From positions 3,410,001 to 3,474,000 of the forward strand of contig JAYWIR010000007.1 in NCBI GenBank assembly GCA_036172245.1: a DNA stretch of 64,000 bases, given 5' to 3'. This document shows positions 2,864 through 42,098 of this stretch, piece after piece (the first letter of the stretch is position 1; every line of letters begins with the position of its first letter). Under the pieces are notes generated by a model. That model did no database searches and was not told where the DNA came from. It saw only the letters and a list, made by a program, of their open reading frames with translations. The DNA comes from Raillietiella orientalis. Its lineage: Eukaryota. The position numbers were made by a program, and so were the translations under genes.

Positions 2864-3517
2864 CCGGACTGCCGGGGAACGGGCACGGAAGAGCAGTGAT
2901 GTGAGCAACATGCCTGCTGCCGGCGCTCCCGGACGACGGAGGCTCCGAACTGCTGCGCATCGCGGCTGCGGGGCGCGCCGGAAGTCCGCCCACGCGTAGG
3001 TCGGTCCTTTCGGTCGGAGGCGGAGGCAGTAAGGAGCGGGAGGGCGGCGGGCGGCAGCGCTGTCATCTTTCGGGGAGCTGCGAAACGATACCTAGAGTTT
3101 TCGTCCCCGGAGAGAAGGGACGCAGGGTAAGGAGAGCTGCAAGCGGAAGGTTGGGGTGACGGGAAAAAGAGGCAGGGAAGAAGCAAAGGGGGAACTTTCC
3201 CTCCTTGGTTACGGCAGTAAAGTGGTGAGGGAGGCGCAGAAAGTAAGAGAGAGCAGCGGCGGAGACAGCCGGCGCGAGACCTCCCCATTGCCTGGACCGG
3301 TAAGGAACGGGGTGTGCCGGGCTGCAACAGTGTGGGACTCACCCACATTGCTACTTCCCCTCCCCACCTCTTTCCGCAGGCACCGCCGCACCCCCTGTTG
3401 ACCTAAAACCGCCTCCAAAGGAGGAGGGAGAGCGCGGAAACCTGAACTTGCGCTCCTTGAAGCAGGGAGGAGGAAGAGGGGAGGAGTCTCGGTTCCCGGA
3501 GAAGCCATGACCGCCTG

Positions 3518-12836: not shown

Positions 12837-13969
12837 CTGCGGATGATGGTTTGCAGTTTATGCATGGAATTATTATGTGTAAACTGATTGGTCAGGGAGA
12901 TAGAGGAAAGCATCCAGAGTGAATGGGATGAAAGCGCTGTGCGTGTACCTTTTCTTTAGCTTCAAAAAAGGAGGGATACCTTTTCTAGCTTCTACGGATG
13001 CTGAAGAGGAAGCGGAATAGAATCTGGCATGATATAGCAAAGTTTTTTTTTCAGATCTGGAGTTTGAAAAGAAAGGAAATAGGCGTGAACTTGTCCTCTA
13101 AGTGCAAACCACAGCAGAGAAATACTTAGCAACGAAGCTTCGATCTGAGATGAAGCTTAAGTGATTGAAGAGATTTAAGTGGTTCTGAGATCATTATGAA
13201 TAGAGAATCTGATGTTTCCATGACCTCTATCCAGGAAGATGATGAATGAGGGAGGCACAGCAGGGACCTAAACCCTCCCTAATTCATCTTCAACCTGATT
13301 CTTCGCGCGCTCGCTTGCATCGGTTCGTGGAATACCTGCTGAAACTTTCGCCATTTTGCTTTTGCTTCGTCTCTGGTTTTGTCCTTATCCTGCATCCAGT
13401 GTTTCCTCTCACGCAGGTTTTAAAATCTTTGACGCGACAGCTAAATGTTCCTAGGCCACACATGGGATGAGTCTTGCCTTCAGCTGGCTGATCCTTGCTT
13501 GTCAGATTCGACGATCTTCATTCCCCTCACGGAGGGAACCACTTATAATGGAAAGAGACGGGTGGGCACGAGAGCGCTGAACGAACATTCTTAAGGAGGA
13601 AGAGGTGGTGAAATTATTGTTAGAGGTACGCGCTGAAGGGTTTCCAAGAGGAATTGGTTTTCGTTATGGTAAGTCGTGATGAGTGGATATAACGAGAGGG
13701 GACCTGCTCAGAGAACGATAGGTGACGGCGATGTCAGAGGTCTTCTGCGCTAAACTAGCCCGATAAGCGGATATCTGATGATGATGACCTGCTTGAACAA
13801 TACCTTCTACCCTACTCTTCTTCCCTATTTTGTGGAAAATCTGCAAAACACACACACACACACACATACATGCAACCCGCACACATGAAGCCCTAAAAAG
13901 AACTGAGTATTTCTTTTCTTTCGGGTTTGCTAAGTACTCGAGAATAATCATCACCTGGTTATTCCAGGC

Positions 13970-14138
13970 ATTTATTATGTAAATAATGAAAATGCATTGG
14001 CTTGGTAGAACACCTGGTTCTACCACGTGCAACGAACCTGCCAGGAGACCGGCCAGGTCCGCTTCGGCAGCGTGGGGGAAGGGAATACAAAAACAAAAAT
14101 AAACAAACATAATAGGGGAGAAAGAAAGTGGACTTGGA
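13970..14138 (-). mobile_element. Inverted 3' UTR of an L1/Tx1-like element, related to the tail at 14820-14995
   Basis: Minus strand: T-rich tract, hairpin TGGTAGAAC-N5-GTTCTACCA, then ATTTTCATT..AATAAA. This parallels GTGGCAG..CTGCCAC..ATTTTCATT..ATAA in the plus-strand tail. Confidence 0.5.
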
Positions 14139-14995
14139 CAGCAACCTTACGGCTAGATGGAAGGTTACTGTGGAAATTCCGGAAGGAGCGGGCAGGACTG
14201 GGCGAGTGGACGACGGACCAGCTCACTGACGTTGCGACCCCGAGCGCTCGACCACACTGGACTTTTAAGATGGGGCGTGCTACTGGGTATTCCGGAGAAA
14301 GACCTGCAGTGGACCGCGGTGCTCATGAACACCCGCACCTTCCTCTTAAAGTTTCAGGAGATGGTGATGCCGCTTCTGCACTGGGGCCTCCCATGCAACG
14401 CCCGCCGGCATCTGTAGACATGGGGTGTGTGGACCCAAACTGTGGAAGGTGCGGAGAGCGGGAATGCCTCCCGCACCTCCTAGTGGACTGTGTTGCCTCT
14501 TTGGGGACGCTATGCTGCGACCCTTGGAACCACCAGAGGCAGAGCCAGAGACGTTTCAAAGCGCCCCTTCCTGCGCGACGCTCTCACCCCGGTAGGCGGC
14601 ATCTCCAGCAGCACTTTGCTGCCTCCGCGGCGGGACGATGTGTGCATGAAGCAGCGCAACAGGAGGCCAGAACGACAAGCATGCCATCCATTTTGCTGTC
14701 CTCTTCATGAGGACAGCGTCAAGATGGCCCTAGCTGGGAGTCTTGAAACAGGAACTTGCGGGCATCCTTACAAGGATGCAGAGAATATTCTCCAGCACGC
14801 AGTGATCCCTTCCTGAACTCCCTCCCCCTTTCCATTTTTTTGACCGTATGTTTTTTGTTTTATTTTTTTCTTTTTGTTTGCCGAGGTGACCCTGCTGACC
14901 TGTGTGACAGAACCCGGCAGGTTCCTTTTCGTATTCATAAGTAACGTGGCAGCATCAAACGTATCCTGCCACAGACATATATTTTCATTGTATAA
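14139..14995 (+). mobile_element. L1/Tx1-clade LINE 3' fragment, copy 1 (ORF2 C-terminal zinc finger and 3' UTR)
   Basis: W..LGI..W...LLHWGLP then, after a frameshift, CGRCGERECLPHLLVDC (CCHC zf-RVT-like). Nearly identical to 35674-36530 (offset 21535; ORF-track translations are identical). Confidence 0.8.
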
Positions 14996-15190
14996 ATAAA
15001 CGCTCCAGGGTGACCGGATGTCCACCAGTGCTTCCGAAGCCAACCAGCGTCATACTGTGGGGAGGACTCGAAATCCACCACGATCCATTCACTTCTCGGC
15101 GTGGATCCTTCCTCGAGTGAGATTCGAACCCTCAGCGCTTGGCACCACGTGTGGAGACCATAGGCACACGGCCTCTAGCGCGGGCTGCGT
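14996..15190 (-). mobile_element. tRNA-derived SINE-like repeat, copy 1
   Basis: B-box GGTTCGAATC on the minus strand (~15121-15130). Homologous to but diverged from 36531-36745; shared core CAGTGCTTCCGAAGCCAACCAGCGT. Confidence 0.6.
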
Positions 15191-18100
15191 GCTTCCCGGA
15201 TGCCAAAGGCGGGGAGATAAGGTAGAGTAGAGATGATGAGTAAGCGTTGTCTGGGACAAGGAAGCTCCGTCCGTGAGAACGAGCAGATCTTCGTGGTTCA
15301 CCGACATGCAAAGGAATGATGGCTACTTGGAGTGCCTGCGGCGTAGAGCAGCTCCACCCAACAACGCTCATTCATCCTACGCACGGGTCACCAGTTCTTA
15401 ATTGTGATCTTTGACTTTTGACACTCCACGCAGATGCGCTCAAGGTCCACTCCCGGTCCGAATGGTGCGATCGTCTTTTGAGCACAGGCGAAATGTCCGG
15501 ACGCACAATTACACCTTCTCAACCCTGAAGTGGGTTGGAAAGGTGCGGCAGGGAGGCCAGCAACGAACCTGTACGCTTCCCTTTATAAACGGTAGCTCAC
15601 CCACCCTTCCTTTCACACGGTCCTGGGGAAGGACACGCGTCCTCTTCCCCTCTCATTGCCGTCTTCACTTACTGTGCATGGGACTGTCTGCTGTCGGGCG
15701 CTTGAAGGTTCTGCCGAAAGCTAGAGGAGCGGGCGCCGTCCGTGCGCGAGCCCCAGGGGCGGTCGTAGGGCGAAGAGGATCAGCGGCCACCTGCCCCGGG
15801 GCGCAAACGTGCTCGAACCTGTCATTCCTCCGTAGTCGGGGGACCCTTCCAGCAAAGCACAGCTCCTCCGGCTGCTGGCGGCGCCCTCCGGCAGGCAAGA
15901 AAAGATGGGAGCAGCCTCCAGGGGAGGAGGGGACGGATGTTTCCTCTCGGCGCGCATCACGGCGCGAACTGATGAGGTCCCGGCCACGTCAGGGGACGCC
16001 CGGATGCTAATTGTGTCTGCAGATTTCCCTACTTGCCTAACTGCCCCATGACGCTCTGGGAAGAAACTCCGTCGTCCGTCCGCCGGAAGAAGAGGTTCCC
16101 TTGCAGCCACGCAGTCTGGGTCATCGCTCGCAATTCGCCACCGTCAACAAAACAGAAGCGTCTACACCTACGCGCCCTCCAGTGAAAGCAGAACCAGGAT
16201 ACCAGACTTCGCTCCGCGATCCCTCCAGCTCCGACTGGGAACCTCCCTTTCTCCTCCTCCTCTTTTCTTCTTCCTCCTCCTCCTTCTCCTCCTCTGGATC
16301 TAGGAGGCATCTCCAGTCGAAGGCGTGAGGAAGGGACAAGCTTCGGAGAGAGATCAGGCCGCCGGCATGTGTCCCGATGGTCCACACAGAGCGGGAGGAA
16401 GAGGGAAGATGGGGCGGCGGGAAGGAACTGCGCGAGAGACGGCATGAGCGAGGAGGACTTCCCGGAGGGGAGACGAGGAGAGAGTCGCGGGAAAGAGCAA
16501 GCGCTGAGACATGGAAAAGGAGAGAGACGGTAGGCGGGGATCACCGAGGTGCCGCAAGAGTCTTTACTCCGGCGGAACCCTTCCCGTCCGCTCCCCCTCC
16601 TCTTCGCCCTGAAGCGAGGCCGTGCGACGAGCGAAAGCTCAGGTTTCATTCCCACCGCATGGGAGCCCCAGATCGGACCCTAAGGACATCGTCTATAGGC
16701 AATGGAAGAGTCTTTCCTCGGCGGCAGCGGCAGCAGCAGCAGAAGAAGAAGAAAACTGTCAGGGAACGATTCATCAGTCACGAACGTGACGTACGCAGCG
16801 AGCTCTCTCCCGCCGTCTCCAAGTAGACTGCTCCGTAGGTGGTTTTCAACCTCCTCCTCCTCTTCCGCCTCGTTCCCCTCCTCCCACGCTCGCGCTGCGT
16901 GGGTGCACCAGAGATACCAAGTGCAGCGAAGAGATGTGAAGAGAAGGAGGAGAGATACGAAAGGGGGGAGCGGCGGCGGCTCCATTCAACCTCTACTGCG
17001 TGCCGGGCGGCGCGCACACTTCTTGGAAGCGAGCCAGATGAGGCGGCGCCAGCAGTTAGAGGCAAGGACATCCACCCGCCTGGAGAACTGCCGCAGTGCT
17101 GCCGAGTTGCTCCGGACCGACGCACTTCTTCAAGATGCCGACGAAAGGTACGTACGCACGGGTTCCTCTTCCCTCCAACCCCTCCCCCTATACCCCCGCG
17201 GGTCAGCACGGCTGCTCCTCCACGACAGAGCGAACGGACGCGCTCCTCGAAGGAGACCCCTTCCTGGAAGACTCCTCCTTCCCTCCATCCTCTACACCCT
17301 CGCTTCCGAGAGGAAAGAGGTAGGAGCTCGTCCGGGGAAATCCCTCCCTCCCCTCCTCCCAGGCCGAAGGTCCTCCCGCTGCTGCAGCTTGATGCTTTGC
17401 GGTCCGAAGAGACCCATCGAGCGTGGCCGCACGCAGACCAGGTCGTGTGCCTTTCTCGTCCGCTGCCATCCGTGCAGCAGGACACGTGTCGAAGCCGTGA
17501 GCGTTGACCTGTCCCTCCCCCACTCCCAGGATCACCTTTCACCCAACCACAGCTCTGGATGGTGTTTTCTTTTCTTTCTTTCTTTTTTTTTTGGCGAGAA
17601 GAGTCGTGAGCAGCGGAGGACCGAGAATGCCCAAGGCACGCAGGTCAGGACGGAACTCAAGATCTCCCCAGCTTCCTCCTCACAGGAATCGAGTGGGGAA
17701 GATAAGGGAGGGGAGGGTGAGGTGACCATCGAGGAAAGACAACACCTACATACGAGTGCGAAAGGAAGAGAGGAACCTCCTCGTCGCCAGAGACTCCAGC
17801 CTCCACCATCAGTCCAGGAACCTGGAACGGAGGTCGCGCCGGCTTGGTCCGAGATTGCAAGAGAAAGGTGGGCAGAAGTTCACTGCGCTAAAGAGGGTTC
17901 GAGATGGGAGGCAAAGAGGCCCACGCGAGGGTCACACTTCTGAGAGAGGGAGGGGGAGTAAGCGAATGAGGTAAAATCGCGGGCGAGTCGCCTGGTAAAC
18001 GGAAACCGCCGCCGCAGTGCTGCTGTTGCCGAGACGGGAGAGCTCACGCAACGGTCCGTAGCTCCCCCGATGCACCGCGCCGCAAGCACCTTCGCCCACG

Positions 18101-20149
18101 CACCTGCAGGGAGCTGTGCGGCTCCCGGTTCCTCCTTGCGTGCCGACCTCCGTATCCGCCGCCTTCGCAACGCCCGAGCTCGCGAGCCTCCCCCGCGAGC
18201 AAACCAGAAAGAGGGCACCCGTGAGTCATCCCCTAGAAGTCTCTCTGGGAGTCGAGGGAAAGAACGTGTGCGAGTCGAGTGCCGGCACGTGACCCTGGAT
18301 GAACCTCGATGACGGTGCCGGTCGTTGCTTCCGGCGTCTCGCATGCACAGGGATCTTCGTCATCCTCCGTGTCTTCCACTTCTCTCTCACCTTTGCAGAA
18401 GCGGATCCGGGCAACTTCCTGGCGATCGGTACGCCATCTCGGGATTTTCCTTTCCATCCCCCTCCCCTCTCCCCCGTGCCCCCGATGTAGCCGTCCGCCC
18501 GACTTCTCTCCGTGGTCGTTTCGCTTTTTGCGTCGCGGCCATCCACGCAGTCGGCTACGCCCGCATGGAGAGTCGCTCGCCGAGAGTTGAAGATGGAGGG
18601 GGGAGGAGGGGGGGGGGCCGAAAGCGGCTCCCTGCTGCTTCCTCGCAACCTTTCTTTTCCCGGAGCGACCCGGATGGGAGCGCTTCGTTCACGCTTGTGC
18701 GAGCCACGCATCGCACTTGCCGCGTCCCCGCCCACTCGTGGACTGCGCCCGCGACGTCAGGACGCAGCTTGCTGCAGAAGGGGGAAGAAGGCGCAAACAC
18801 GCAAAACACCTGATCTGGTTTTGTTTTGTTTTCTTGTGGGGCATTCTTTTTTTCAATCTGCGTCCCGTTTATGGCATTCGCGCGCCAGACCTGCGCCTTC
18901 CCATCACGTACGCTCGAGGTGTTCGCGGGTCGAGCCAGGCGAGGAGGCGAAGCTTCCTGAGAAGGGGTCAACTTTTTCCTGCGACAAAACATCGATCCGC
19001 TTCCCGGAGATTATCGATTTAGATCCGGTGAAGATGAACGCGTATGTCTGAATACCACGGGACGAATACGCCAGGGAGGTGGGTTCGGAATGTTCCAGAG
19101 CTTCGGGGATTCCAAAGGGCGATGCGACACTGCACGACCAAGGCAGTCGAACCTCCTCCCCGGCAGCACCTGGATGCGGTGCGTTTCCGCCAAGCAGAAG
19201 CCACGTATCAGTTGCAATCCTTTTCCTTTTTTTTCTAGGAGGGGGAAGGAGAAAGAGGGGGGGGGGGGGGGGAAGCGCGTGCGTCCGTAACATCGGGAGG
19301 AAGGGGAAGAAAACGATGAAAAGCGTGCAGAGAGATGCAGAAAGTCGTTGGCATTTCTGACGAAGAATGGCTCTGCGTCAGGCGGTTTGCGGCGGATAGC
19401 TGCCACGCGCCTGCGCGCTTAGCGAACGAGCGGAGGAAAAGGAAAGCGCCGCGTGGTGGAAGGTGGGGGTGAGGGGGGGGGGGGTGAGGGCGAACCTCTT
19501 GTTATCTTCTGGTTACGTTTGCGGAGAGCACGAGCAAAGTCGAAAGCAAGTCGGATTCGGGTCTCTCCCTTCCGCCAAGAAGGTGGCATCGGCTGGAGGA
19601 GGAGCAGAAGGAGCCAGCAGGTGCAGAGCAAACAAGCAACGCCCCGCGCGACGGACGACCTGCACCAGTTGGCAATGGAACCTGGCGGGGTTGACAGCAC
19701 AGTGCCTGGCTTCCCTACCAAGAGCGTGAGTTCCCGAGGGCAGCCTCCGTTCTGCGACGCACATTCGTAATGCATGGGAATCAGAGGGTTCGAAGACGGC
19801 AGGCGTCGCCGAACCCGCTGGGTGGCTGAGGGCGGGAAGAGGCGAAAGACGCTTCCGAATCAGCCGGTCGCAGCTGATACTGCGGAAGGCGGCCTGGTGG
19901 CTGGAAAGGTGAGAAGTAACTCCTCTTCGAAGGACCGGCAGCATGGCGGAAACACGGGGGAGGAGGGGGGGGAAGCGCGTACGAGGAAGAGAAAGAGAGA
20001 ACCGAGGAGAAAGCAGAAAGTTAGGCAAACGGAAGATTTCAAGGTCTCAGCAGCGCCGAAAGCACGACGACACAGATGCTAATCATCTGAGCAAACGGAA
20101 CCGGGCAATCCCGCGCACTCTTCCTCTCACGTTCAGACGAAGAAAACAT

Positions 20150-20700
20150 TTCTGAGGCCAGTTGGCGCGCTGTTGGACAAAACCGAGGGGGCGCGCCATC
20201 TGCGAAGCAGTGGATCCGCTCGAAACTTTCGAGTGCTTCTTCGTGGACGAGGAGGTGCGGGACCTCTGTTCGTTCCTGCCCTCTTCCAGAGTGGGAAAAG
20301 CTCCAGCGAGAAGGAAGCAAGCGTTCGCGACTTACCGGTGTTGAGCTGAGCGCGGCTGCTGCACGGGAGGGCACAGAGTATGCGCACCCAGTAGAAGAAG
20401 CCTCACGTGTGCTGCTCGGCCCACTGGATGAGCTAAGAGTGAAAGCAACGGCAGTGAGGAATTGACATGAGCCTTCGTGGGCGCGCGCGCCTGGGCTGCT
20501 GCGTGAGGGACAGGTGCTACACCATTGGTACATCGACAGGAAGAAATGAGAGAAGACATCACCACCCATCCACCAAGAAGGCAGAAGAAGCGCGTCGCCG
20601 ACGCTACGCGAAGCCGCGTTGGCTCACCTGCCATCCGATACGCGGCGCGACAAGCGAACCCAACCTTTTTCGCCGCGAGCAAAAGTGACCGAGGAAGAAA
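20150..20700 (+). mobile_element. Possible piggyBac-like transposase remnant
   Basis: VDPLETFECFFVDEEV resembles the piggyBac N-terminal PxxxFxLFxxDE motif, and a decayed Cys-rich stretch follows. No DDD core or TIRs found. Confidence 0.22.
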
Positions 20701-21443
20701 ACGGGAGATACGGGAAACACTAGCTCCGTGGAACGACGGCTGCGCGAGTACAGTCGTCCCTCGGCTTGCTCGTTTTCGGGAACAATCTGCAAAGGGTGGA
20801 AAATGTGCCACACCAGCAGCTGCCCTTGAGAAAGATTCATCCACAGAGACTGCCGACTCGAACAAGAAATCGCAGAGCTACGTCGACACCCCGAGCATTG
20901 AGCATGCACACAGGCGGCAGTCCGTGAAGGAGGAAGAGGAGAAAAGGGGATTCTTTTTCATTCTTTTTATTTTGAGGGGGAGGGGGAGGGGATAGAGACG
21001 GTGCGATTCACGCGCTGCCACGACAGAGGTAGTAGTTTCTCTCTGTCTCCTCTTTTCCTCTCGGATGATGACGGCAACGCAGAGATGATGCGGTGGCAGC
21101 TGCCTGGGAGCTCTGATGCAGCCTGCTTCCCGCGGGAACCGACGGAAGGGGCTTCCCGAAACCACGCTGATCTTGCCCGCAGTCCCGGTTCGCCTCAGCT
21201 CGCAGGAAGCGGATCGTTCCCGCTTCTTCCACGCGTTCGCTTCCTACCTTTCAAGCAAGGAGAGAGAGAGAGCCTGAGAAGCAGCAGCGCCTCCTCCGCC
21301 GCAGTCCCAGAGGTCGGTCCTCGCGCGTGAGGAGAGTCCCCTTCTCAGGCTTCGACCCGGGGACACCCGCACACCTGACCTCCCTCCCTCGCCCCCATCC
21401 CTTTCACACATTCTGCTGACGACCACATCTGCTCGTCCGACAG

Positions 21444-22587
21444 CCAAGTACGCGCTTCCCAGCTGGAAGGAGAAATCTAACGGGGACGTCTCCCAGCACT
21501 CGGTGTTGGCGGGCGAAGACAACGGATCGGCGGTGTACGTTGGCATCGCTGAGCACAGCGGCGACGTGATTCCTGGGAAGGTGATACCTAACCACAACAC
21601 GATGTACATCTCCTTCGAGGGAAAGGAAATTTGCAAGGACCATTACCAGGTCGGTTTTGCAGCAGCAGGCTCTACAGGAAGGAAGGGGGTGCAGGAGGGA
21701 AGAAAGAGGCACGGACCTTCCTTCTGTGCATTGCTTAGGTGCTGCACAACCCGTCACGCTGCGCTCTGGTCTGGATAGAAGCTAAAGACGGCAGCATACC
21801 GACTGGAGCGCTTCAAGGAGGCCAGACGTCTTCAGGAGAAACCCTATACATCGCAAAGTGCCAGATAGATGGGAACTGCGTAGTCGGAAAAGTATGGACC
21901 TTCCCTATCCCCACCGGTTTCGTGAGCGTGGCAGCGAGAGTTCGTCTCGGTTTTCGCGATTCACCTTCCGCACGCATGCACGCCTCTCTCCTCCCAGCCT
22001 CCTCTCCCCCCCCCCCCCATCCCCGACCACGCGCACACCTTTGTTCTTCCTGAGCCGGTCTCGTTGGTGGCGGCATCAGCGCCCTCTTGTTGCCCTCCAC
22101 ACGGAGCGCGAGACGATCCTTGCTTCCCCCACGGTGTGACGATTCGTGGGAACCTCGAATTGAGGATCCAGCCAACTCGGAATCCCCGCTCAAGAGCTTC
22201 CAACTCGCACCTCTGATTCACGCGCGCGCGCACTTCCGATCTGCTGCCGCCTTTCACCACCGCATCATCTTCCTTGTTCAGTTGGCAGCTTCCGATGCTT
22301 CCCGATGACTCGTCCCGCGCTTTGCAACCCTCCGTGCGTCAGAAAGGGGGATCGAAACCCAGGTGCATCCGGCCCTGTTCCCACTGCGCTGCGATTCGTA
22401 GGTCCTTCTCCCGCCCAGCGTTTATTCGCCCGTACTGTGTGGTACGCTGCCTCCGTTCCAGGTGCATCCTAGCCACGGAACAGCATACTTTCCTTACGGC
22501 GGAGAAGAAATTGGCAAATCGGAGTACGAAGTTTTGTGCATGAAGGAGTGCAACTTGGTTCGGAAGGAAGAGCATGACGATGACTGA
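21444..22587 (+). CDS. DM9-repeat protein (exons 21444-21649, 21739-21891, 22462-22587; 5' exon unresolved)
   Basis: Two DM9 repeats: W..GDVSQHSVLAG..VYVG..GDVIPGKV..YISFEGKE..YQVL and W..GSIPTGALQGG..GETLYIA..VGKVHPSH..YFPYGGEE..YEVL. GT-AG introns keep the frame; TGA at 22585-22587. Confidence 0.88.
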
Positions 22588-25500: not shown

Positions 25501-25612
25501 ACAGTGCTAGCAACCACAACCACTAGGTCCAGTTAAAACAGTACAAACATAGGATTCTATCCATTAGCTGCTAGCATATCACAGAAAAACATAGGTAGAT
25601 AAATGTAAACGG

Positions 25613-27042
25613 TCAGAAAGTATGCAATCCATTATATATAGTATACTGAGATCTTTGGTTTAATATGTGTGACAACTCTGAAAATTACACATGCAGAAAG
25701 AGGTGGTATATGTACATCAACTTACGTTCTTTGTGCTCAGCAGTCAACTCTCCTTTAGGAAAATCCACATCAAAGGTTACAAACAGAGACCCAAATTCAT
25801 TGTTGTTTTCATAGTTTGGCATGCCCTGGCCTTTCTTTTTTATCTTAGCACCAGGCCATGTAATTTTATCTCTTTTAATTGTCACCTGATGACCATCTAA
25901 ATGTGTTATGTTGACTTCAAAACCCTTCAAAGCATCTTCCAAAGTAATGGTTACATTAGTAAAGAGATCATCTCCACGCCGCTCAAACAGTTTGTGTGGC
26001 ACTGCAGAAATACGCAACAACAGATCACCAGGTTCACCATCAATATGTGGTTCTCCTTCTGCTACAAATTTACTTTCTTGTCCATCTCTCATGCCAGCTT
26101 CAATTTCCACTTCCAGCACATGTTCCTCATTAACAAGCCTAACAGCAGACATACACTTTTCTGTATTTCAGCTCTGGTTAGCTTACTTTACATTAGGGCA
26201 CTCATCACAGATCTGCTGCTGAGTCATTTGAAATCGGCCAGGACCAAGTTGTCTAGTAACCATTTCCTGACGGCAGTTACACTTCCTAGTTCCTTTTGCA
26301 GGCCGTATAACTGGTTTATTGCGAGCTAGCTAGTGGGAAAAATAAATTTTCTTACTCCTCTTTAACTACCTCGACAAAATTGCCAACATATAATTCCTCT
26401 AAGGTGACAGGTAGAGTCATTACTATATCAGCTCCTCTTGGAGTCCCTTCACTTTTGCTTTCGCCAAAATGAAAACCGAAATCTCCGAAAAAACTGGCAA
26501 ATGAATCCATGCCACCTCCATAACCACCTTCTTTTTTAACACATTCCTCTCCACACTGATCATACTGTTGTCTTGTATCAGGATCAGAAAGCACTTCATA
26601 CGCAGCTCCTAAATCCTGAAACCGGCTCTGTGCATCTGGATCGTCCTTATTAACATCTGGATGAAGTTCTTTTGCTAACTTTCTATAAGCTTTCTTGATT
26701 TGATTCGTATTTGCTGATCGTGGCACCCTCAGAATCTTATAGAAATCCCTTGTAAAAACATTATTATTAGGCATATTTCACTTTAATGCTTGAGCTCAAC
26801 ATGCACAACGCAATGAAGAATGCTACTTAAGTACACTCTCATTCATGAAGAGCAACAAGATAACCTTAAGACTAGTAGTTAGCTTTGCCATAAAATCTCA
26901 CGGGGGATGCATGTTTTCGCACGAGAAATTATAACCAAATTATGTTACAGAAAAGAAACTTAACGAGAAATCATTATTACCTGGATGATTCCAATACCGA
27001 CACACATGCCAACAAAAGGAGTCCCACGTAACTGCAAAGCAT
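25613..27042 (-). CDS. DNAJB11: DnaJ homolog subfamily B member 11 (ERdj3); exons 27042-26981, 26748-26370, 26329-26187, 26138-25726, 25677-25613
   Basis: Signal peptide [13 protein letters not shown].., J domain RDFYKIL..HPD, the [28 protein letters not shown] Cys-rich insert, a DnaJ C-terminal domain and a YNGL terminus. All splice phases are consistent. Confidence 0.95.
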
Positions 27043-30000
27043 TTTGTAGATTTCTTACAAAAGCGTGTAGCCTCCAATGTGCAATCGAACAACCTGCTGC
27101 GACTGCACAACTCGGTGAGCCTATACAACTCTGACATACCACTTGAAACCACTTTTGAAGTTTACACCTATGCTATGCCAATACGTGGCACGCCATTCGA
27201 ACACCATGTAGTGATGGTGATGGTTTCTGCCAGTATCAACGGAACGGATCCTGAATCAAAGTTTTCCGAAATAAGTTGTAGTAATAGGAAAGATACAGCG
27301 GGCCCAACAATTATATTATATCAAGAAAGGAATGCTACTTTTCTGAAATTCCATTCCACAGATCTTCCGTTGAGAAAACTATATATGCAAGAGTCTTATT
27401 TTCTATCATGCTAAAAAGAAAACAAAAATACACTTATAAATAAGAGCTTCTGTATTCCTTATTGATGATCAGCACGTAGTTATTCCAAAGAAATAACTGA
27501 TAACCTTTGAGCTCATGAATACATATCCATATGAACTCAATCTTATAGACGTATACCTGCTTATCGAATATGAAAAGTTTCTTCATACTTATGAATTGGA
27601 TTGCTTCCAAACATTTTTGCATACATTCGAGCTTAGAGGCATCAGTATTTCCAATAATGTCCCTTTATGAGTATAGAACTCTTTAGAATACAATCTATAA
27701 ATTAATTATACATCATGGTGAACAATGGCATAATTCCTCTGTAATTGCATCGACCATGTTTTGGTATTCAAGTACATCCGGAGATCAAGACAAAAACGAA
27801 ATTTCCACCAAATGTATATACTTTAATGGCAGAATTGAGAAAGTCTATAACAGTTTTGACACATTTACCATTTTCTTTTAAAATTATTATTCAGAGCTAA
27901 AGGATTTCTCTTATTTTATTTAAGCTTAATTAGCATCGATATGTGGCTGCAATGATACTGCTGAATTGGCTGCTATCATTTAAGATAATTATCGTGATGA
28001 TGACTGGAAACATATTATTTTTTTTTTTCTTTCGTGGCTATCACTGGAAACGCCGAAACCATTCACGAGCACTCTTTTTATTCTGCGCTACAAATCGTAC
28101 CCTTCATTTGGAGTATATATTTCATGTATATTTGTAATGAAAGTCTCCTGAACATGAAATATGATCATATGGATAAATTTTATTTTCGATCCTTCCTGTC
28201 GACGTGGTCTATTTTGCTTATTAATATTATATGTTCCTCAGTATCTTTCTGAAACTTATTCCGTATGAATGGATAGTTTGCATGTGCCGCTCGGCCATTC
28301 TTCGAAGGTTCTCTTTAAAGGTCTGCAGGAAGGATGGCTAACAGGGAAACGTAGTTGGTTCACTTTGGTTGCCTCTTGATTTCTCGAACATCTTAAAGAC
28401 AAAAGAGGATGCTTTCGAAAAGTATAACTGTTTGGATTTGCTAACAACCAATGTTCTTTGAATTTTTTCCAAATTCCTTTTTGCTGGGAAGCATTCGTAT
28501 AGTTTTGTCCTTTATTTCGATTTTCAGTAATTCCGACGTAATTCAAATTAATAATAAATCGAAATGCTCCGTTGCGTTCTAAGAAATCCAGTTTCTTAGC
28601 ATAGTTTAAGTTTGAAGGAATAGATTTAGTTTAAAAGAATAGCAAAGTTAATATTAGATAAAATACCCACGTCTAATCCACGCAGAATATGTCCTAATAT
28701 GTCCTAATTTCATTCTAATGTGCTGGACATGAATATGAATTGAAGGTGTTCGCATAGCGTTATTTCAACTGTATTTAATAAAACTTTAATTACATTGCGG
28801 GTGAAACTCAGTAAATTGCTTAATTTATTGTGGAACTATCGGTTACAACCTATTTTGTTTGGCGGTTACTCTTAGCCCATTTTCAACATCCAGTCATCAC
28901 ACAGATTGCTTGTTATTGCTTGTGATCATGTGATGGGCCTTAAATTTATACGGCTTGGGGCGAGATTCAGTTTGAAAGCAAAGCCAAAACAAAATTATAG
29001 TTGTAAAAAAAAAAAAAAAAAAAATGCTACTGTCTAACTATACGCAAACAACAGAATTGAAACAGAATTTCAGCACATCATTCGGTCAAACAAATACTTA
29101 ATTTCTCCTAGATTTATTCGTAAACATTAAAATAAAACATACCTTTATTGTGTGAATGTGAGAAATGGAATTTTATTCTCCCCTTATGTTGATGGAGACT
29201 ATAGAACATTTTAATGCCTCATATTCCATCAACAAAATTTCGCGTTTGAAAAACACGTCTGAGATTCCTTCTCACCACATAACCTTCTTATTACTATGCT
29301 AATTTGTACTTTCACTTCCAGGACTTCTCCAGAATGCCATCCTTACAAATACAAACAGTAATTAGGACTGGTTTCTTGTGCAGTCAGCTTGTAATCTGTC
29401 TCCAGGTCCAGGTGCACTAATTTTACCAAATCTGTCAAGGTCGTCATTGCTAAAAGATGAATCCATTAGAGATGTTACCCCATTGATAACAGCTTTCCTA
29501 TTGATTTATAAGAGGACCTGACAGAGAGGGAAAAGGATGAAAACAAATTAAGAGTGGGAAAGAAAGGATGTTTGTCCGTCCGTAAGATGCGAAGTGTTTC
29601 TGTGGAGTGGCCGAGGGTTCTGATACACTGTGCTAATGCAAGAGGATCCTAATGGAAGAAGTAGATTTGAAAGATGGTGCTTTGGGAGGAAGATTCGAAA
29701 GAAATCAGGGTATTTGCATAGGCTGATGAAAGGGAGCCTTGAATCGGCGTGACGTTTTGAGAGGCTGACTGATTAAATTGGAGCTGGAGTGTGATTTTTG
29801 TCGTGTAAAAATCATCTCCAGGGTTTTTGAGGGGCCCAAGGAATTTGTCGAGAATCCCAAGAATCATGAGCAATCATCACCATAATTGCCAACGATGTGA
29901 GTATTTTGGAATTCCCCGTCATTTTAATTCTACTTATGACGTTTAAAGGATAACTTTGAAAGCCTGCTCGAAGAAATGCCGAGAAAAATTTGTCTGGAGA

Positions 30001-30734
30001 GGGAGGAACCAGACAGGCATATCAGCAAACGTAAAACTTACTGGAGCAAGCCTTCTTTTCACATCGGCAGCTCGTAAAAATGTCTTAATGGCTCTCTGGG
30101 ATAAAAGTGCAACCTTCACTTATCTTACGAAACGAAAAGGTTTGCGGAAGGTTCTTTTCTTGTGAGCTATTCGATAAACACAAACAAGTGATAAGGGTTG
30201 CTAAATACGTTTGAATGAAACATTTAATCCGTCAGTTATTGAGTTTTGACATGATGCATAATGAAGAATGTTCAACGGAAAATCTTTGCTTTTACAACTT
30301 TGCCTGCACTATTTTTCTTATCCTACTGGAGATCATGAAGTAGATTTAAAGTAACCCTTTCGTATCTGCGTGGGAGAAAGCGGAAAATGGGGATGGTTTT
30401 CAATTCAGTTGTATATCAGTCGATTTCCTGACTGTTGGATAGCTTTCTCTGTAAGTAGCTAGAAACACTGGAATAAAGTGCATTTGCTGTTCACTCATCG
30501 TTCCCGTTTCAAGCTGCCTTCCGTTTTGTAACCTTCAGGGTACTTCTCGAAACCCAGGCGTTTCCGCCCTTCAGATCAAATCTCCTGGATGTCATGTTTC
30601 CCACAGGACTCACATGCTTACATTCAATCCAATTAAAGATATCGCTCGACACTCCAGAAACGCAGTCTCACACTAAAAGAATCTGAACGGTTGCAATCTA
30701 AAACTGCCAAATGAACAAATGAATGACAGGCAAT

Positions 30735-32990
30735 GTCAGGAGTTCAGCACCAAGAGGTTGCCGTCTTTCTGGCCTTCCTGTTCCGTCAGTGGTGACCTCG
30801 GAGTGAGCGAATCGAGAGGAGTAGCCACGGGCGTGGGTGTGCCGGAGGAACATGCGAACGGCCCCAGACTCTCGCAAGCAACGCGAAAGAGAGCACCCTC
30901 CATGAACGGCAGAAATTGGTGGATGCAGAAATTTTCTTTGACGCGGCTGTACCAAAGGCTGAAACCTTCGCAGAGGTGACAAATGAAACTTTAGAAACTT
31001 AAAGAGGATTATATTTGTAGAAGCCGAAAGAAAAAAAAAAAAGAGGAGGGGGGGGGGATGAACGAGTGTATCAAAGAGTGTGCGTGTCCGTGAAACTTTG
31101 TTCTCCCTAAAAGAAAAAAAAAGGTTCGCAAACTTGTTTTGCTTTGCAAGAGAAAGGGATGGAGTCAGTAAGGAAGAAATGGGAACTGCTCAAGTTCCAA
31201 TAAGATTCCCGATAGTACTGAAAATGGAAAAAATCCTCCATGATCTCCGAATAAGAATTTAAATGTTCTTAAGAAAACCAGCTTTCATTATGATTCACAA
31301 GTGAGACAACTAGGCTCCATCCAAAGGAAGAGCAATGTGCACAAGCATAGTGAAATAATTATCAATATTTATTGATATGCATATTATTAACGGTGACATT
31401 ATTTTAAAATATGCATTTATTTCTATTCATAGACGTGCATATTATTAACATGATTAATAATGTGTTTATTATATATATATATATTTGCATAAATATGGAC
31501 ATATGGATTAATATATATTCTAAAGTTTCTAAAAATTTTGATCAAAAATTGTCATGAAGGGGAAGACTTAGATTGCAACTGAGTGCTGGCTTGTTCTTGT
31601 GTTGCGATGTCTTTAAAGACAACTACGAAGGGACTCAGTGGAACTGATTCTGGGGTCGAAACCTGTTCCCACTGCAAGTGGCTGATCTTTGCATCACTCG
31701 AAATGATCAAGAGGTTCGAGGACACGCACACCTGCCAAGGACCTCTGTCCTGGCAGCAAATTAATAAGCCGTTTTGTGCCTGAGATGTACGAGTGGAGTT
31801 GTGAACCACGGGAACGTGGGTCCATCTTGGTCCAAGTTCCACACTCTCTCAGTAATCCCTCAGTGGCGCTGAACAGAAGTGTTCCATTAGAATGTTCAAA
31901 GGTACGAAGCAAGTGTTGAACTTCCAGCTGATCAACGCTAGAAGGCAACCAAGCCGTACTCTCAGAGGTGCCAACCAAAATCCCGAAAGATAATAAAAAA
32001 TAGATACATTTGTTTATTGCGTGTATTGATACGCATACATTTATATATAGATTAACACGCAAAGTTATTTTAACTTGCATACTTATTGATATACGTATTA
32101 TTAACAGTGACATTATTTTAATATATACATTTATTTGTATTTATAGACATACATATTATGAATGCCATTAGTTTATTAATATATATTTGCATAAAGATTG
32201 ATATACAGACTAATACATAATGTAAAGATTATAAAAACTCGTTTGATCGTTCGGGATTTTGAGCCAAACTCCACTTTGGTATACCCCCGTGCCTCTTCGC
32301 TCTTCACCATCCGTCCAAGCGTTTTTAAGTCCAGGGAAGGTTCCAAGAGACTCCTCGTGCCCTTTGGGGGCACTTCGAATTGCCAGCTTTTGTTCTTCTA
32401 TACCTCCGACCGCAAGAGAATCCGAAAGTTCACGTGCCAAAGCGCCTCATCGACGTGCTGAGCTTATGGTCGCCGTCCGTGAAGGCACCAGAAACTCTTG
32501 TGAGAGACGGACGCGACCGCAGACCAGCAAGGGGCTGCTGTTATCCGTCCCCACCCATCCATGAAAAGGTGAGAACTCCGCCGCCGTCCGTCGGGTACAG
32601 TCCCTCAACGTACATCCTACCATTTTTAGTATATGTACAGACGAACCGTGTACGTATACTAAAATACATCGTACCATGGTACGCATTTGCCTGCTAATTC
32701 TCTTGACTTTCGAACCTCTAAGCGAAGATTTCAGTCTTTGGTACAGCCATGTGAAAGAAATTTCTACATCCACCACCTCGCCGAGTTTCCGGAGAGGTTT
32801 GCCATTCATGGAGGGTGCTCTCTTTCGCGTTGCTTGCGAAACTCTGGAGCCGTTCGCGTATTCCTCTGGCACACCCACATCCGTGGCTACTCCTCTCGAT
32901 GCGCTCACTCCGAGGTCACTACTGACGGGACAGAAAGGCTCACAGAAAAGCCAGAAAGACGGCGGCCGCGCGATGCTGAATTCCTGACGC
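30735..32990. repeat. Nested inverted repeats plus an AT-rich direct repeat
   Basis: Outer arms ~30735-30975 and ~32715-32990 (e.g. TCGCAAGCAACGCGAAAGAGAGCACCCTCCATGAA and its reverse complement). Inner diverged arms ~31877-31991 and ~32245-32377. AT-rich direct repeats ~31366-31540 and ~32079-32248. Confidence 0.75.
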
Positions 32991-34094
32991 TGGCTGCGGC
33001 AGCTGGGTCAAACCCGACTGCGTGGCTCCACATCCTCGGGTGCTGCGAGACAGAGACGAAAATGCGACCCTCCGATGTCTGCTCGCAGGACTCGGCTCTT
33101 TCGCTCTCGCAAAAAAGGAAGAATCTTCCCGAGCCGTGTCACCATCTGGGGAGGGCAGAGTCCAGGGGAGTGAGGAGAATTGGGTTGGCTGTGAATCATC
33201 GGCACCCTCCAAGTTCCAGGAAGAAGCCAGAGGCATTTTCCTAATGGGAGGGACTGCGGGTGGCTTCGGGATTGGTAAACAACAGCCACACTGCAAGAAA
33301 AGTTTCCTGGATGCCGAGGCGAAGGACACGAGATTGATGTGTTTTCCCGTTGCTGACAACGTGCTTCCTGAGCAGATGGGATGTGGGAGAGGCCGGAGGA
33401 GAGGATAAACAAGGGTGAGCTGAGTCACCTAGATCCACGAAAGGGACAACAACGGTAACACGAACAGCTGGAAGACGTGTAGCGGCATACGAAAGGGAAA
33501 AAGAAAGGAAGAAAGGAAAGACAGAGGAAGAGTAGAGAAAAAACGAAACGAAGACGAAAAGGCAACGAAAACAAGATTTCAATCACATCAAGGAATTCAG
33601 AAGCCGAGATCGCAAAAATGCAGTTCGCTCCCGCGGGGCTAACGAGTCGGGAAGGTCGCTCGTGGTGCACAAAAAGTAAAGATCCCCATTTTCCCCAGAT
33701 CTGACAAATGGTGAAGATGGGAGGGGGGGAGGGAGAAGATTTATCAATGCGAATGATTTTGACAACACCAATCAACGCCGTGCGTCTTTTAGGGTGATGA
33801 ACTCTCAATCCTCTGGGGTTCTCCTGTTTTGGTCGCTTTCCTTACAGCTTTTTTTTTTTGGCTTCGCTGACTGCTGAAGAACCGTTCGCTTCCTTGGGGA
33901 GGGACTCACGAAGCTTTTTAACGATACCCACGCCACCCGAGGGTGAGTGTAACCCTTCGAGCTATGGGAGGTGACACCGGAAGGGGACCACCCTATGAAT
34001 CCAGGAAGGCTCCGGAGGAAGGAGAGCCTGGTAGGGAACCCCGAAGGGAACCCTCCACCCTGGTTGTCTTCGATTTCCGGACACGCCGAAACGT

Positions 34095-35670
34095 ATCTTA
34101 AAATTAAAAAGAACCTCATATCCTGTGGTAGAACACGTGGTCCTACCACACAACGTTTGTCCACGGATCTGTCGGGTCGCCGGTGAGCAGACCGGTGGGG
34201 GTCACCTCGACAGCGGGAGGGGGATGGGAGAAACAAAAAGAAAAAGAAAGAGAATTATAAATAAAAATCTCTGGAAGAGTCTGGAGGGGACCCCTGTCCG
34301 CTGGAGGGAGTCTGCATCCTTTCCTGCATGCCTGCTAGGTCCGTCCAAATAGGTCCCAGGTGGAGCCATCTGGATGCTATCCGTATAAAGCGAATTGAGA
34401 ACTGGACGGCTCCCCCCTCGTTCCTTCTTCTGTTGCTCCAGGCCGCCTCAATCCCGCGGATGCAGCCAAGCGCTGCTGGGGCTGCGGTTGCCTGCAGGGC
34501 GTCCCGCACAAAGAGGAGCCGCAAAACGTCCTTAAGGACGCCAACCGGGATCCGGAGGATCGTTCTGGATCCCAGTTGTTTCCGAAAAGAACCTCTTCCT
34601 TATTCTCTCCTGAGAGATCCCCGAAGGGGGTCATTCCTCATTTCTTCTACGAAGGGAATCCACAAGGAACGGCTCCTTGTTTCCTCCTTCTCTGAAGAAA
34701 ACCCCGAAAAAACACTTCCAAATTTCTATGAAGAGCTCTCATCGAAGGGAGTAGTGCTCTTCTTGACACTCTGGAGAGGAAACCCCCCGAGGGATGTACC
34801 AACCAGCCCCATGATACGCGATGAAGGGCACCACAGGGGGAGGACGACTCCCTTTTCACAACTGGAGGGGATCCCCAAAACCAACTGACTCCTTGGTTCC
34901 TGGAAGGACCCCGGAGGATCAACTTTTTAATCCTGACCAGTCAAAGGGGGCTTCCGGTTTCCAGCTTCCACCAGTGCCGCCCCATAATGTGCCAGAAACC
35001 GCCTTCAGAAAGCACTGCAGGCGCCCGGCCTGTTCCAAAGAGGTAAGTTTTACCTGTCGGAACAGACCGCAGTGTGGAATGCCTTCGTGGCCCCCTCCTC
35101 TGCTCCCTGATTTTTGTTTGCCACCGCCATGCAGCATTAGGAAACAGTCAAAGGAACTCCTCCGGATCGCCCTCTGAGGCAAAGGGAGGCCCCGAGTCCG
35201 CCTAAAGGACTTGTGTGCTCCGCGCTGGGACGGCGGCCTAGGCCCTCTGACGCTAGAGCGAATGGAGCTGCAGCCCCAGTTTTGAACACTTGCCCTCGTG
35301 GAAAAATTCTGAAGCACCGCCTGGTGCCAACCTGCATGTCTTCTCGTCCAGAGAGCCACCGGCAGCGTGGGACTCGCGTCCTTCCTTGAGCTCCCTCCAT
35401 GCAGTCTCATCCACGGTGGAATGCACCTTCGGCAGATGACCACGCTGGCGAGGCAAAACGGATGGATCTCGTGCCGTCCCGAGAACTGTAGTGCCTGGTT
35501 GCAGGAAACCGTTCGCACATGGGTGAGGATCCAGGAGCCTAACAGGTGCGACGTTTCCTGTACGCGCCCCACAACTGCATGTTCCGGGAGATCCTGGAAG
35601 ATCCCGCGAAGAGTGCGTGGGAAAGCAGAACCTCATTCGCCGCCGCGCCGCCCTCCCTTAGGAAGCATAT
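34095..35670 (-). mobile_element. Degenerate L1/Tx1-like 3' portion with 3' UTR, inverted relative to the adjacent copy
   Basis: Minus-strand tail: T-rich tract, CGAGGTGACC (shared with the plus-strand tail) and hairpin GTGGTAG..CTACCAC. Upstream is a decayed ORF2-like C-terminus (ECQEE..IWK). Confidence 0.5.
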
Positions 35671-35673
35671 AGT

Positions 35674-36530
35674 CAGCAGCCTTACGACTAGATGGAAGGT
35701 TACTGTGGAAATTCCGGAAGGAGTGGGCAGGACTGGGCGAGTGGACGACGGACCAGCTCACTGACGTTGCGACCCCGAGCGCTCGACCACACTGGACTTT
35801 TAAGATGGGGCGTGCTACTGGGTATTCCGGAGAAAGACCTGCAGTGGACCGCGGTGCTCATGAACACCCGCACCTTCCTCTTAAAGTTTCAGGAGATGGT
35901 GATGCCGCTTCTGCACTGGGGCCTCCCATGCAACGCCCGCCGGCATCTGTAGACATGGGGTGTGTGGACCCAAACTGTGGAAGGTGCGGAGAGCGGGAAT
36001 GCCTCCCGCACCTCCTAGTGGACTGTGTTGCCTCTTTGGGGACGCTATGCTGCGACCCTTGGAACCACCAGAGGCAGAGCCAGAGACGTTTCAAAGCGCC
36101 CCTTCCTGCGCGACGCTCTCACCCCGGTAGGCGGCATCTCCAGCAGCACTTTGCTGCCTCCGCGGCGGGACGATGTGTGCATGAAGCAGCGCAACAGGAG
36201 GCCAGAACGACAAGCATGCCATCCATTTTGCTGTCCTCTTCATGAGGACAGCGTCAAGATGGCCCTAGCTGGGAGTCTTGAAACAGGAACTTGCGGGCAT
36301 CCTTACAAGGATGCAGAGAATATTCTCCAGCACGCAGTGATCCCTTCCTGAACTCCCTCCCCCTTTCCATTTTTTTGACCGTATGTTTTTTGTTTTATTT
36401 TTTTCTTTTTGTTTGCCGAGGTGACCCTGCTGACCTGTGTGACAGAACCCGGCAGGTTCCTTTTCGTATTCATAAGTAACGTGGCAGCATCAAACGTATC
36501 CTGCCACAGACATATATTTTCATTGTATAA
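35674..36530 (+). mobile_element. L1/Tx1-clade LINE 3' fragment, copy 2
   Basis: Same sequence as 14139-14995 apart from three substitutions noticed in the first ~55 bp; same frameshifts. Confidence 0.8.
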
Positions 36531-36745
36531 GTAAACGTCCCAGCGTGACTGGGTGTCCATCAGTGCTTCCGAAGCCAACCAGCGTTATCCTGCGGGGGGA
36601 GAGGAGCTCGGAACCCACGGCTCAGAGGTGTGGATCCTTCCCAGAGCAGGATTCGAACCAGCGACGCTTGGGCCACGCACAGAGAGCAGAGCCGATGCGG
36701 GCCGTAGTCTCCCCTTTAGGTCCACACTGCGGCACTCAGTCGCTT
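36531..36745 (-). mobile_element. tRNA-derived SINE-like repeat, copy 2
   Basis: Minus strand has an A-box-like GTGCCGCAGTGTGG and B-box GGTTCGAATCC; homologous to 14996-15190. Confidence 0.6.
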
Positions 36746-41524: not shown

Positions 41525-42098
41525 ATGATGTTTTCACCTAAAAAAAAAAAAAAAAAGTTTGTTTTCAAAGTGGTATAAAGCAGTACTTAACTCTTTATGT
41601 AAAGAGCCAACAGCAATGATGCTAGCAACCTGTAGCAAAGACTGCATCCCATCTGCAAGAGTGGTATTGCTAAAGGAATACAGCGAAGAAGTCTCAGCGT
41701 AAACAGTAGAAAAGGAAAAGAATTGACCGAGAGCCCTATTAGTGTTTCACTGGATAGAATTTTCTAGACAAGTACGAACTGAAGGAGATGTTAAGCTTCT
41801 AAACAAAGGAAAGGCTGACGAATATTTTTCTTCTCGAGCACGCGATGGTCATATTAGCCCATGGTGCTCAAAAGAATCGAGCCTTCTGAAAAGTTGGCAA
41901 GATTTTGAACAAGTTATCGAATTGAAAGAGAAAGAATTTTTCAATACACAAATTCCCCGTCCCGACTTTTGGGTAGGATTTTGTGCCATACCAAGAGTAA
42001 TTGAATTCTGGCAAGAAGGTGAACACAGAAGACATATCAGATTTAGGTACACCCTTGTTCATGAAAGCAATTGGAAAACAGGACAGCGATATCCTTAA
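41525..42098 (+). pseudogene. pdxH: Pyridoxamine 5'-phosphate oxidase
   Basis: [57 protein letters not shown]. Poly-A expansion at ~41540, small deletions and frameshifts. Confidence 0.92.

What the first reader, a model, noticed from the sequence alone, without database searches (positions are those of the whole stretch)
13970..36745. Twice-repeated composite: inverted LINE tail + near-identical LINE 3' fragment + antisense tRNA-SINE
Seen: two loci 21.5 kb apart (13970-15190 and 34095-36745) share one architecture. An 857-bp L1/Tx1 3' fragment has the same 5' breakpoint and the same frameshifts in both, and is almost identical. On its right, identity drops sharply at CATTGTATAA| into homologous but diverged tRNA-SINE sequence in antisense. 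On its left, each copy is fused head-to-head to a different but related LINE tail (same terminal hairpin type, GTGGYAG..CTRCCAC). Known: Tx1 elements are often target-sequence specific, and SINEs borrow LINE 3' tails. Inference: this is either a non-autonomous Tx1 derivative that targets a SINE at a fixed site, or a chimeric retroposon reading tRNA head > antisense LINE > sense LINE tail, or the product of priming by two RNAs at one target. This is the best candidate here for an undescribed mobile system.
Basis: partly seen in the sequence, partly recalled or inferred. Interest (0 to 1): 0.72.

Follow-up and report, generated by a model that had tools for sequence, protein, structure and literature searches.

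The report
Three LINEs share one SINE target
The two look-alike loci are not one new chimeric element but two old copies of a tRNA-headed repeat that three related jumping genes (LINEs) each hit at their own fixed spot, and their near-identical middle most likely comes from later copying between neighbouring copies.

Summary
The repeat is real: 854 of 857 bases match, with an 806-bp perfect run. The reading is different. The host is a ~0.85-0.9 kb tRNA-headed, SINE-like repeat on the minus strand; 34 of 40 sampled copies are empty at the first site. Three related L1-group LINE families insert into it at three fixed sites with target-site duplications and variable 5' ends: LINE1 antisense near host base 165-175, LINE2 sense near 550, LINE3 sense at the host 3' end. 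Locus B is one host hit by LINE1 and LINE2, with 0.4 kb of host between them. Locus A is a host hit by LINE1 and LINE3 that lost its middle. The 'shared 5' breakpoint' is wrong: B's LINE1 runs 690 bp further. Both copies are old (88% to the family consensus). Near-identity among such copies falls with distance (6 of 7 pairs under 25 kb, 0 of 2826 across contigs), which points to local gene conversion. No reads were available to exclude polishing. The scan noted SINE-targeting LINEs and conversion on other DNA of this genome before. A new variant of known Tx1-type targeting.

The parts
13911..13944 (-). Locus A: last fragment of the host repeat (host positions 733-767)
   Evidence: Local alignment score 36 against the host consensus, 0 of 1000 shuffles reach it; 16 bases identical to natural host copy L221
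13945..14127 (-). Locus A: 3' tail of LINE3 (about 180 bp, hairpin 14005-14026), in host sense, at a secondary site about 90 bases before its usual one
   Evidence: 39 other matches at 76-82%; alignment with 13 copies
14133..15023 (+). Locus A: 5'-truncated LINE1 copy (end of ORF2, 3' UTR, two terminal hairpins), joined head to head to LINE3 with under 10 bases of filler
14190..14995 (+). 806-bp tract identical to 35725-36530 (inferred conversion tract)
15024..15184 (-). Locus A: host head (positions 2-175), B box 15120-15130; site-1 target sequence at 15024-15035
   Evidence: nhmmer E 2.6e-32
33819..34071 (-). Locus B: 3' part of the host (positions 536-794); 34058-34071 is the downstream copy of the site-2 duplication
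   Evidence: nhmmer E 2.6e-50
34072..34570 (-). Locus B: 5'-truncated LINE2 copy (about 500 bp) in host sense at site 2; a degenerate upstream copy of the duplication lies at 34571-34583
   Evidence: sequence
34580..34983 (-). Locus B: host body (positions about 153-567); 34970-34981 is the left copy of the site-1 duplication
   Evidence: nhmmer E 1.5e-118
34984..36558 (+). Locus B: 5'-truncated LINE1 copy, 1.57 kb, ORF2 residues about 700 to the end plus 3' UTR
35725..36530 (+). 806-bp tract identical to 14190-14995
36559..36692 (-). Locus B: host head (positions 22-174), B box 36649-36659; 36559-36570 is the right copy of the site-1 duplication (9 of 12 bases match the left copy)

Best explanation
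A tRNA-headed, SINE-like repeat of about 0.85-0.9 kb spread first. Three related LINE families of one L1-group radiation (APE endonuclease, RT, zinc finger) then inserted into it by ordinary target-primed reverse transcription, each at its own site: LINE1 antisense at CTTCC^ACCAGTGCCGCACC, LINE2 sense at CTTC^GGAGACAACC, LINE3 sense at TTTCC^ATCATC near the host 3' end. Shown: fixed 3' junctions, duplications of roughly 10-15 bp, variable 5' truncation, empty hosts. Inferred: the endonucleases choose the sites, helped by a shared TTC(C) motif before the nick. Locus B is a host hit twice (LINE1, LINE2). Locus A is a host hit by LINE1 and LINE3 that lost about 560 bp of host and the 5' parts of both LINEs, at the second insertion or later (inferred). 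The two LINE1 copies, 21.5 kb apart in direct orientation around a DnaJ gene, were then kept alike by non-allelic gene conversion, which copied shared frameshifts and left the edges to diverge (inferred).
For: LINE1: host head directly after the 3' end in 25 of 30 loci, host on at least one side in 27 of 30 (includes A, B and one duplicated pair); 3' junction matches the site at 8 or more of 12 bases in 19 of 29; duplication at 8 or more of 12 bases in 12 of the 16 loci where both ends were found; 107 exact junction 17-mers genome-wide, control 0; 5' ends spread over more than 1.3 kb. LINE2: host on at least one side in 28 of 30, junction match in 19 of 30. LINE3: host reaching position 770 or beyond upstream in 18 of 30, duplications starting in CATC in 6 of 29. 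Empty hosts: 34 of 40 run through site 1 uninterrupted, 5 hold LINE1, 1 lacks the head. Conversion: A and B are 88% identical to the family consensus like other copies (range 86-92%), the tree is star-like and its best-supported groups are same-contig neighbours; outside the tract A-B identity is 77%, 85% and 67%, within or at the top of the background; best 300-bp identity of 95% or more in 6 of 7 pairs under 25 kb, 5 of 16 at 25-200 kb, 2 of 30 at 0.2-1 Mb, 0 of 51 beyond, 0 of 2826 across contigs; four other pairs have tracts bounded inside the repeat with unrelated flanks.
Against: No reads were listed, so the last 1-2% of identity could come from polishing. Loci are top search hits, not a random sample; the distance bins mix families; two of the close pairs (L004/L005, L033/L036) run into flanks and look like local duplications. 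Some copies lie outside the host (3 of 30 LINE1, 2 of 30 LINE2, at least several LINE3), so targeting is a preference. No intact master of LINE1-3 was found; the closest intact relatives are about 68% identical, so the endonuclease step is untested. Locus A has no left duplication, so the order of events there is not shown. No target-site duplication was detected for the host itself.
Confidence: 0.85

Rival explanations
1. The 806-bp identity is an assembly or polishing artefact (collapsed consensus); targeting is real but conversion is not.
For: 100% identity over 806 bp between old copies; no reads to check.
Against: Identity is graded with distance and patchy: L003 at 150-175 kb is 90-100% per 50 bp, L032 at 320 kb peaks at 96% and falls to 70-76%; 3 differences sit in the first 51 bases; copies 20% diverged are not normally collapsed (own knowledge).
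Confidence: 0.07
2. Locus A arose in one event by priming from two RNAs: LINE1 and LINE3 nicked opposite strands 560 bp apart and the two cDNAs joined head to head, replacing the host middle.
For: A has two outward-pointing 3' ends, each joined to host sequence, and under 10 bases of filler between the 5' ends. The family does make 5' inversions (L003, L045, L047).
Against: Hosts hit twice with the spacer intact are common (B, L074, L076, L080, L101, L217, L224), and single insertions with loss of adjacent host occur (L018, L020, L059). Sequential insertion plus deletion needs no new step. It explains neither B nor the identity.
Confidence: 0.12
3. A chimeric retroposon (tRNA head, antisense LINE, sense LINE tail) or an 857-bp non-autonomous element was copied recently.
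For: Read on the minus strand, A has no run of four T between the head and the LINE3 tail, so Pol III could cross LINE1.
Against: A and B differ in left partner, spacer and LINE1 length; the tract excludes the LINE's own last 28 bases; no unlinked copy is above 79% over the core; five copies with 5' ends near one position are not a clade (82% within, 81% background) and sit at an internal mimic of the target sequence; the T-rich LINE2 and LINE3 UTRs hold five-T runs before the terminal hairpin, which should stop Pol III (own knowledge).
Confidence: 0.03
4. The LINEs are guided by the Pol III machinery bound to the tRNA head (position-specific, as recalled for Dictyostelium TRE elements) and not by sequence.
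For: All three sites lie in one Pol III-type repeat; site 1 is about 100 bases after the tRNA-like part.
Against: Three distances and two orientations; base-precise junctions; LINE2 also uses a second CTTC^GGAG near host 494 (L065, L074, L079); off-target L008 sits at CTCC^ACCG with its own duplication and no host.
Confidence: 0.08

Closest known systems
Tx1-clade LINEs that target other transposons: Xenopus Tx1L in Tx1D (piggyBac); crocodilian Tx1-Mar in Mariner-N4_AMi, Tx1-9_AMi in Harbinger, Tx1-8_Crp and Tx1-4_AMi in LTR elements (PMC4494074, passages read)
   Same: L1-group APE-RT LINE, fixed site inside another interspersed repeat, several related families on one host, target-specific by that paper's 20% criterion
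   Different: The host is a tRNA-headed SINE-like repeat, not a DNA transposon or LTR element; three base-precise sites in two orientations; RT lineage is a long separate branch, 30% or less identical to any database hit
Kibi, Koshi and crocodilian Tx1 families that target (TC)n, (TTC)n, (TTCC)n (PMC4494074)
   Same: All three sites here have TTC or TTCC just before the inferred nick
   Different: Targets here are single sites in a complex repeat; kinship to these families was not tested
Non-allelic gene conversion between neighbouring TE copies, e.g. Alu, raised under 10 kb (PMC6598467, passages read)
   Same: Identity depends on distance, mosaic tracts, tree groups neighbours
   Different: Here perfect tracts of 300-800 bp persist between copies otherwise about 20% diverged, and raised identity reaches 100-700 kb
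SINEs with LINE-derived 3' tails (PMC3747384, passages read)
   Same: Sense insertion of LINE2 or LINE3 yields tRNA head plus LINE tail at the DNA level
   Different: Here each such join is a separate insertion with its own duplication; none was seen to have multiplied

Membership tests
L1-group LINE | ORF2 with APE endonuclease, RT and C-terminal zinc finger | tested here: met
   Intact relatives: Exo_endo_phos, RVT_1, weak zf-RVT; best solved relative human L1 ORF2p E 1e-42 versus R2 E 7e-13; window fragments align to residues 702-1148. Shown for relatives about 68% identical, not for LINE1-3 masters.
L1-group LINE | Fixed 3' end, variable 5' truncation, target-site duplication, 5' inversions | tested here: met
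   inversions in L003, L045, L047
Tx1 clade | Target preference (one sequence type in over 20% of flanks) | tested here: met
   27 of 30, 28 of 30 and 18 of 30 loci for LINE1, 2, 3
Tx1 clade | RT groups with named Tx1 elements in a tree | tested here: inconclusive
   No labelled Tx1 sequence was returned; in a quick tree of 36 rows the six own ORFs form one long branch with no supported sister
Tx1 clade | ORF1 with zinc knuckle | tested here: inconclusive
   One of two ORF1 candidates has a weak zf-CCHC hit, E 2.6e-4
tRNA-derived SINE (host) | tRNA-like head with internal Pol III boxes | tested here: met
   Host consensus 1-76 folds as a cloverleaf at relaxed ARAGORN thresholds (85-90%), not at default; aligns to genomic tRNAs at z up to 7.4, parent not resolved; single copies score nothing in ARAGORN (0 of 25 loci) or Rfam
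tRNA-derived SINE (host) | Dispersed, many copies, defined 5' end | tested here: met
   95 exact 19-mers, control 0; most copies start at the same base
tRNA-derived SINE (host) | Target-site duplication around the element | tested here: inconclusive
   Best 10-mer identity 6.0 vs 6.2 control (11 copies) and 6.2 vs 6.3 (6 copies): none detected; short or decayed duplications are not excluded
tRNA-derived SINE (host) | 3' tail (A-rich or shared with a partner LINE) | tested here: inconclusive
   A minority of copies continue about 45 bases past CATCATC to a T run and A tail; most stop raggedly near CATCATC. No partner LINE tail found.
tRNA-derived SINE (host) | Pol III transcription | not testable with these tools
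   No sequencing runs listed
Non-allelic gene conversion | Tract inside shared homology, unrelated flanks, identity decaying with distance | tested here: met
   not confirmed by reads

The most novel reading that the evidence does not exclude
One Pol III repeat has served as a shared safe harbour that a separate, deeply branching L1-group LINE radiation partitioned site by site (three sites shown, a fourth near the tRNA 3' end hinted), much as R elements partition 28S rDNA (recalled). The host may not be an ordinary SINE: it shows no duplication of its own, has a modular body with seven CUUCGG units, and mostly ends at LINE3's own terminal motif, so it may have been spread by the very enzyme that targets it. 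Sense insertions would then be a DNA-level route by which SINEs gain LINE tails.
Probability: 0.15. Interest if true: 0.72.

Novelty: new variant of a known kind. Interest (0 to 1): 0.45.

Why it matters
It extends target-specific retrotransposition to a SINE-like host used by three sister families at three sites. The genome also holds many intact young relatives with different 3' junctions, so it offers a natural series for asking how APE endonucleases switch targets. It also warns that in this genome near-identity of neighbouring repeats does not mean recent transposition. Six paper searches listed no SINE-targeting LINE, but Repbase entries and most subscription papers are not in that library and no supplements were read.

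Tried and rejected
Sequencing runs for 13500-16500: none was listed, so the long-read and RNA checks were not done. Rfam: nothing in the window at gathering thresholds, no family for the host in 13 loci. ARAGORN at default: 0 of 25 loci. Host target-site duplication: not detected in two tests; the idea that LINE3 mobilised the host gained no support. Host as structured RNA: consensus body folds at z -2.3 only (40 shuffles) and the alignment shows block indels of a degenerate internal repeat; covariation was not counted. A composite subfamily with a shared 5' end near LINE1 position 486: rejected. Helitron-like host: considered for CTAG near the 3' end, rejected because the ends are ragged and the 5' end is not TC (defining features recalled). 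Tx1 placement: no labelled reference. Search of earlier scan notes by sequence: nothing. PMC8869645 had no relevant passage. Rows dropped: L005 as a duplicate of L004; L031, L061, L091, L116 as repeats of places already held; copies covering under 550 bp of the core.
Full report
Observation. A self-comparison of the window finds one long repeat, 14139-15142 against 35674-36671. The first 857 bases differ at three places, all in the first 51 bases; 14190-14995 equals 35725-36530 exactly. The fragment is the end of a LINE ORF2 plus 3' UTR, with the same frame changes in both copies. Three details are not. B's LINE continues about 690 bases further left, matching other genomic copies at about 80% and ORF2 back to residue 702. 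The LINE's 3' end lies about 28 bases to the right of the drop in identity, after a second hairpin shared by the whole family. And in B about 400 bases of non-LINE sequence separate the two LINEs.

The host. Searching the genome (210 Mb, 491 contigs) with that spacer gave 41 matches among 40 scored candidates; in many the tRNA-like head joins the spacer directly and continues into the sequence left of B's inverted LINE. The three pieces are one repeat of about 0.85-0.9 kb on the minus strand. A profile from 18 such copies maps B as head 36692-36555, body 34987-34580 and end 34072-33819, and A as head 15184-15019 plus a 34-base end fragment at 13944-13911 (0 of 1000 shuffles). The consensus head folds as a tRNA only at relaxed thresholds, and its parent tRNA is not resolved. 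I fetched 40 of the 95 places with an exact 19-mer across the first site (taken down the list, not at random, and biased towards empty sites): 34 run through uninterrupted, 5 hold LINE1, 1 lacks the head. I found no duplication around the host itself, and most copies end raggedly near CATCATC while a few go on to a T run and A tail. I therefore call it SINE-like.

Three families, three sites. LINE1 (the core): in 25 of 30 loci the host head follows the 3' end in antisense, and 27 of 30 have host on at least one side. The junction matches ACCAGTGCCGCA at 8 or more of 12 bases in 19 of 29 loci; 4 gave no terminal motif and 6 scored lower. The same sequence recurs at the 5' junction at 8 or more of 12 bases in 12 of 16 scorable loci; in B it lies at 34970-34981 and 36559-36570. 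An exact 17-base junction occurs 107 times in the genome, control 0. 5' ends are spread over more than 1.3 kb. LINE2 (B's left tail): host on at least one side in 28 of 30, junction GGAGACAACCAG matched in 19 of 30; the target module is present in only about 5 of 20 empty hosts. LINE3 (A's left tail): the host's 3' end lies upstream in 18 of 30, with duplications starting in CATC in 6 of 29. In A it sits about 90 bases earlier than usual. Read in LINE sense, the three empty sites are CTTCC^ACCAG, CTTC^GGAGA and TTTCC^ATCATC; a common TTC(C) before the nick is my inference. Off-target copies exist, for example L008 with its own duplication.

The LINE lineage. A protein search of the genome gave 150 scored matches, many with long open frames. 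Fifteen fetched stretches hold ORF1 and ORF2 of up to 1212 residues with endonuclease, RT and a weak zinc finger, closest among solved structures to human L1 ORF2p. They share the terminal AATAAA-CCCGG..CCGGG hairpin but differ in the bases after it, and are about 68% identical to LINE1. Database relatives are 30% identical or less, none labelled Tx1; the quick tree leaves the lineage on a long branch. It works like Tx1; membership is open.

Why the two copies are identical. In a tree of 32 LINE1 copies the family is star-like and A and B are 88% identical to the consensus, like the rest. They are old. The best-supported groups are neighbours on one contig: A, B, L003 and L032; L011 and L025; L007 and L009. 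Beyond the tract A and B are 77%, 85% and 67% identical, against backgrounds of 60-86, 52-88 and 53-73%. Among all loci in hand, a best 300-base identity of 95% or more occurs in 6 of 7 pairs under 25 kb, 5 of 16 at 25-200 kb, 2 of 30 at 0.2-1 Mb, 0 of 51 further and 0 of 2826 across contigs. Of 11 pairs inspected, four (L102/L108, L072/L075, L078/L082, L011/L025) have tracts bounded inside the shared repeat with unrelated flanks; two (L004/L005, L033/L036) run into flanks and may be local duplications. This is the pattern of non-allelic gene conversion described for Alu and other elements (PMC6598467, passages). A DnaJ gene lies between A and B, so a crossover would delete it while conversion would not (inference). 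No reads were listed; polishing could add the last few percent but would not give graded, patchy identity.

Locus A. It is the only true head-to-head join: LINE3 sequence reaches about 14127, LINE1 begins about 14133, and host positions 176-732 are missing. Hosts hit twice with the spacer intact are common, and insertions with loss of adjacent host occur, so two insertions and a deletion are the simpler account. Priming by two RNAs in one event cannot be excluded (about 0.12).

Comparison. Tx1-clade LINEs that target other transposons are known: Tx1L in Tx1D, Tx1-Mar in Mariner-N4_AMi, others in Harbinger and LTR elements, and families on TTC or TTCC repeats (PMC4494074, passages). Six searches listed no paper on a SINE as target; Repbase and supplements were not seen. 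The scan's own notes record the site-1 type of targeting in at least eight other windows of this genome, on two to four copies each, and conversion in others; my reading was written before I saw them, and I tested it here on larger sets. What this report adds is the empty hosts, the second and third families, and the distance effect.

Verdict. Not a new chimeric mobile system. It is a well-supported new variant of target-specific LINE insertion, overlaid by local gene conversion. Interest 0.45.

Noticed in passing
window 6000-8300, minus strand: Broken non-LTR element of another type: RVT_1 hit at 7638-8282 (E 5e-12) and a downstream CCHC-like motif, R2/NeSL-like by eye; no Rfam target nearby.
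   Followed up: partly
window 10544-11120, plus strand: A further 3' fragment of the same LINE radiation, more diverged; its target was not examined.
   Followed up: no
L222 (host 64-97), L227 (host 74-90), L221, L120: Insertions or breaks just after the tRNA-like part of the host suggest a fourth site; L222 holds LINE tail pieces in antisense there.
   Followed up: no
L149-L163: Many young LINE subfamilies with open ORF2 of 940-1212 residues lie nested in each other in clusters; they share the terminal hairpin but have different 3' junctions, a possible series of target switches.
   Followed up: partly
L007, L010, L016, L017, L057: Five LINE1 copies have 5' ends within 12 bases of each other, at an internal sequence that mimics the target duplication: a microhomology hotspot for 5' joining, not a subfamily.
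   Followed up: yes
host 3' end, 26 motif occurrences: Most host copies stop within a few bases of CATCATC, which is also LINE3's terminal motif and target; a few run on to a T run and A tail. Unexplained.
   Followed up: partly
L004/L005 (C12) and L053/L054 (C14): Near-perfect inverted pairs 2-9 kb apart; the C12 pair includes tRNA genes next to the LINE1 insertion.
   Followed up: partly
window 3461-4102, 21278-21775, 25688-26777, 41727-42095: Exons with Kazal, DM9, DnaJ/DnaJ_C and pyridoxamine phosphate oxidase domains.
   Followed up: partly
window 30727-30977 vs 32714-32996; 31365-31535 vs 32079-32237: Two other repeat pairs at 77-78% identity, one inverted, one direct.
   Followed up: no
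L041:551-660: A decayed 28S rRNA fragment (E 4e-6) near a host copy.
   Followed up: no
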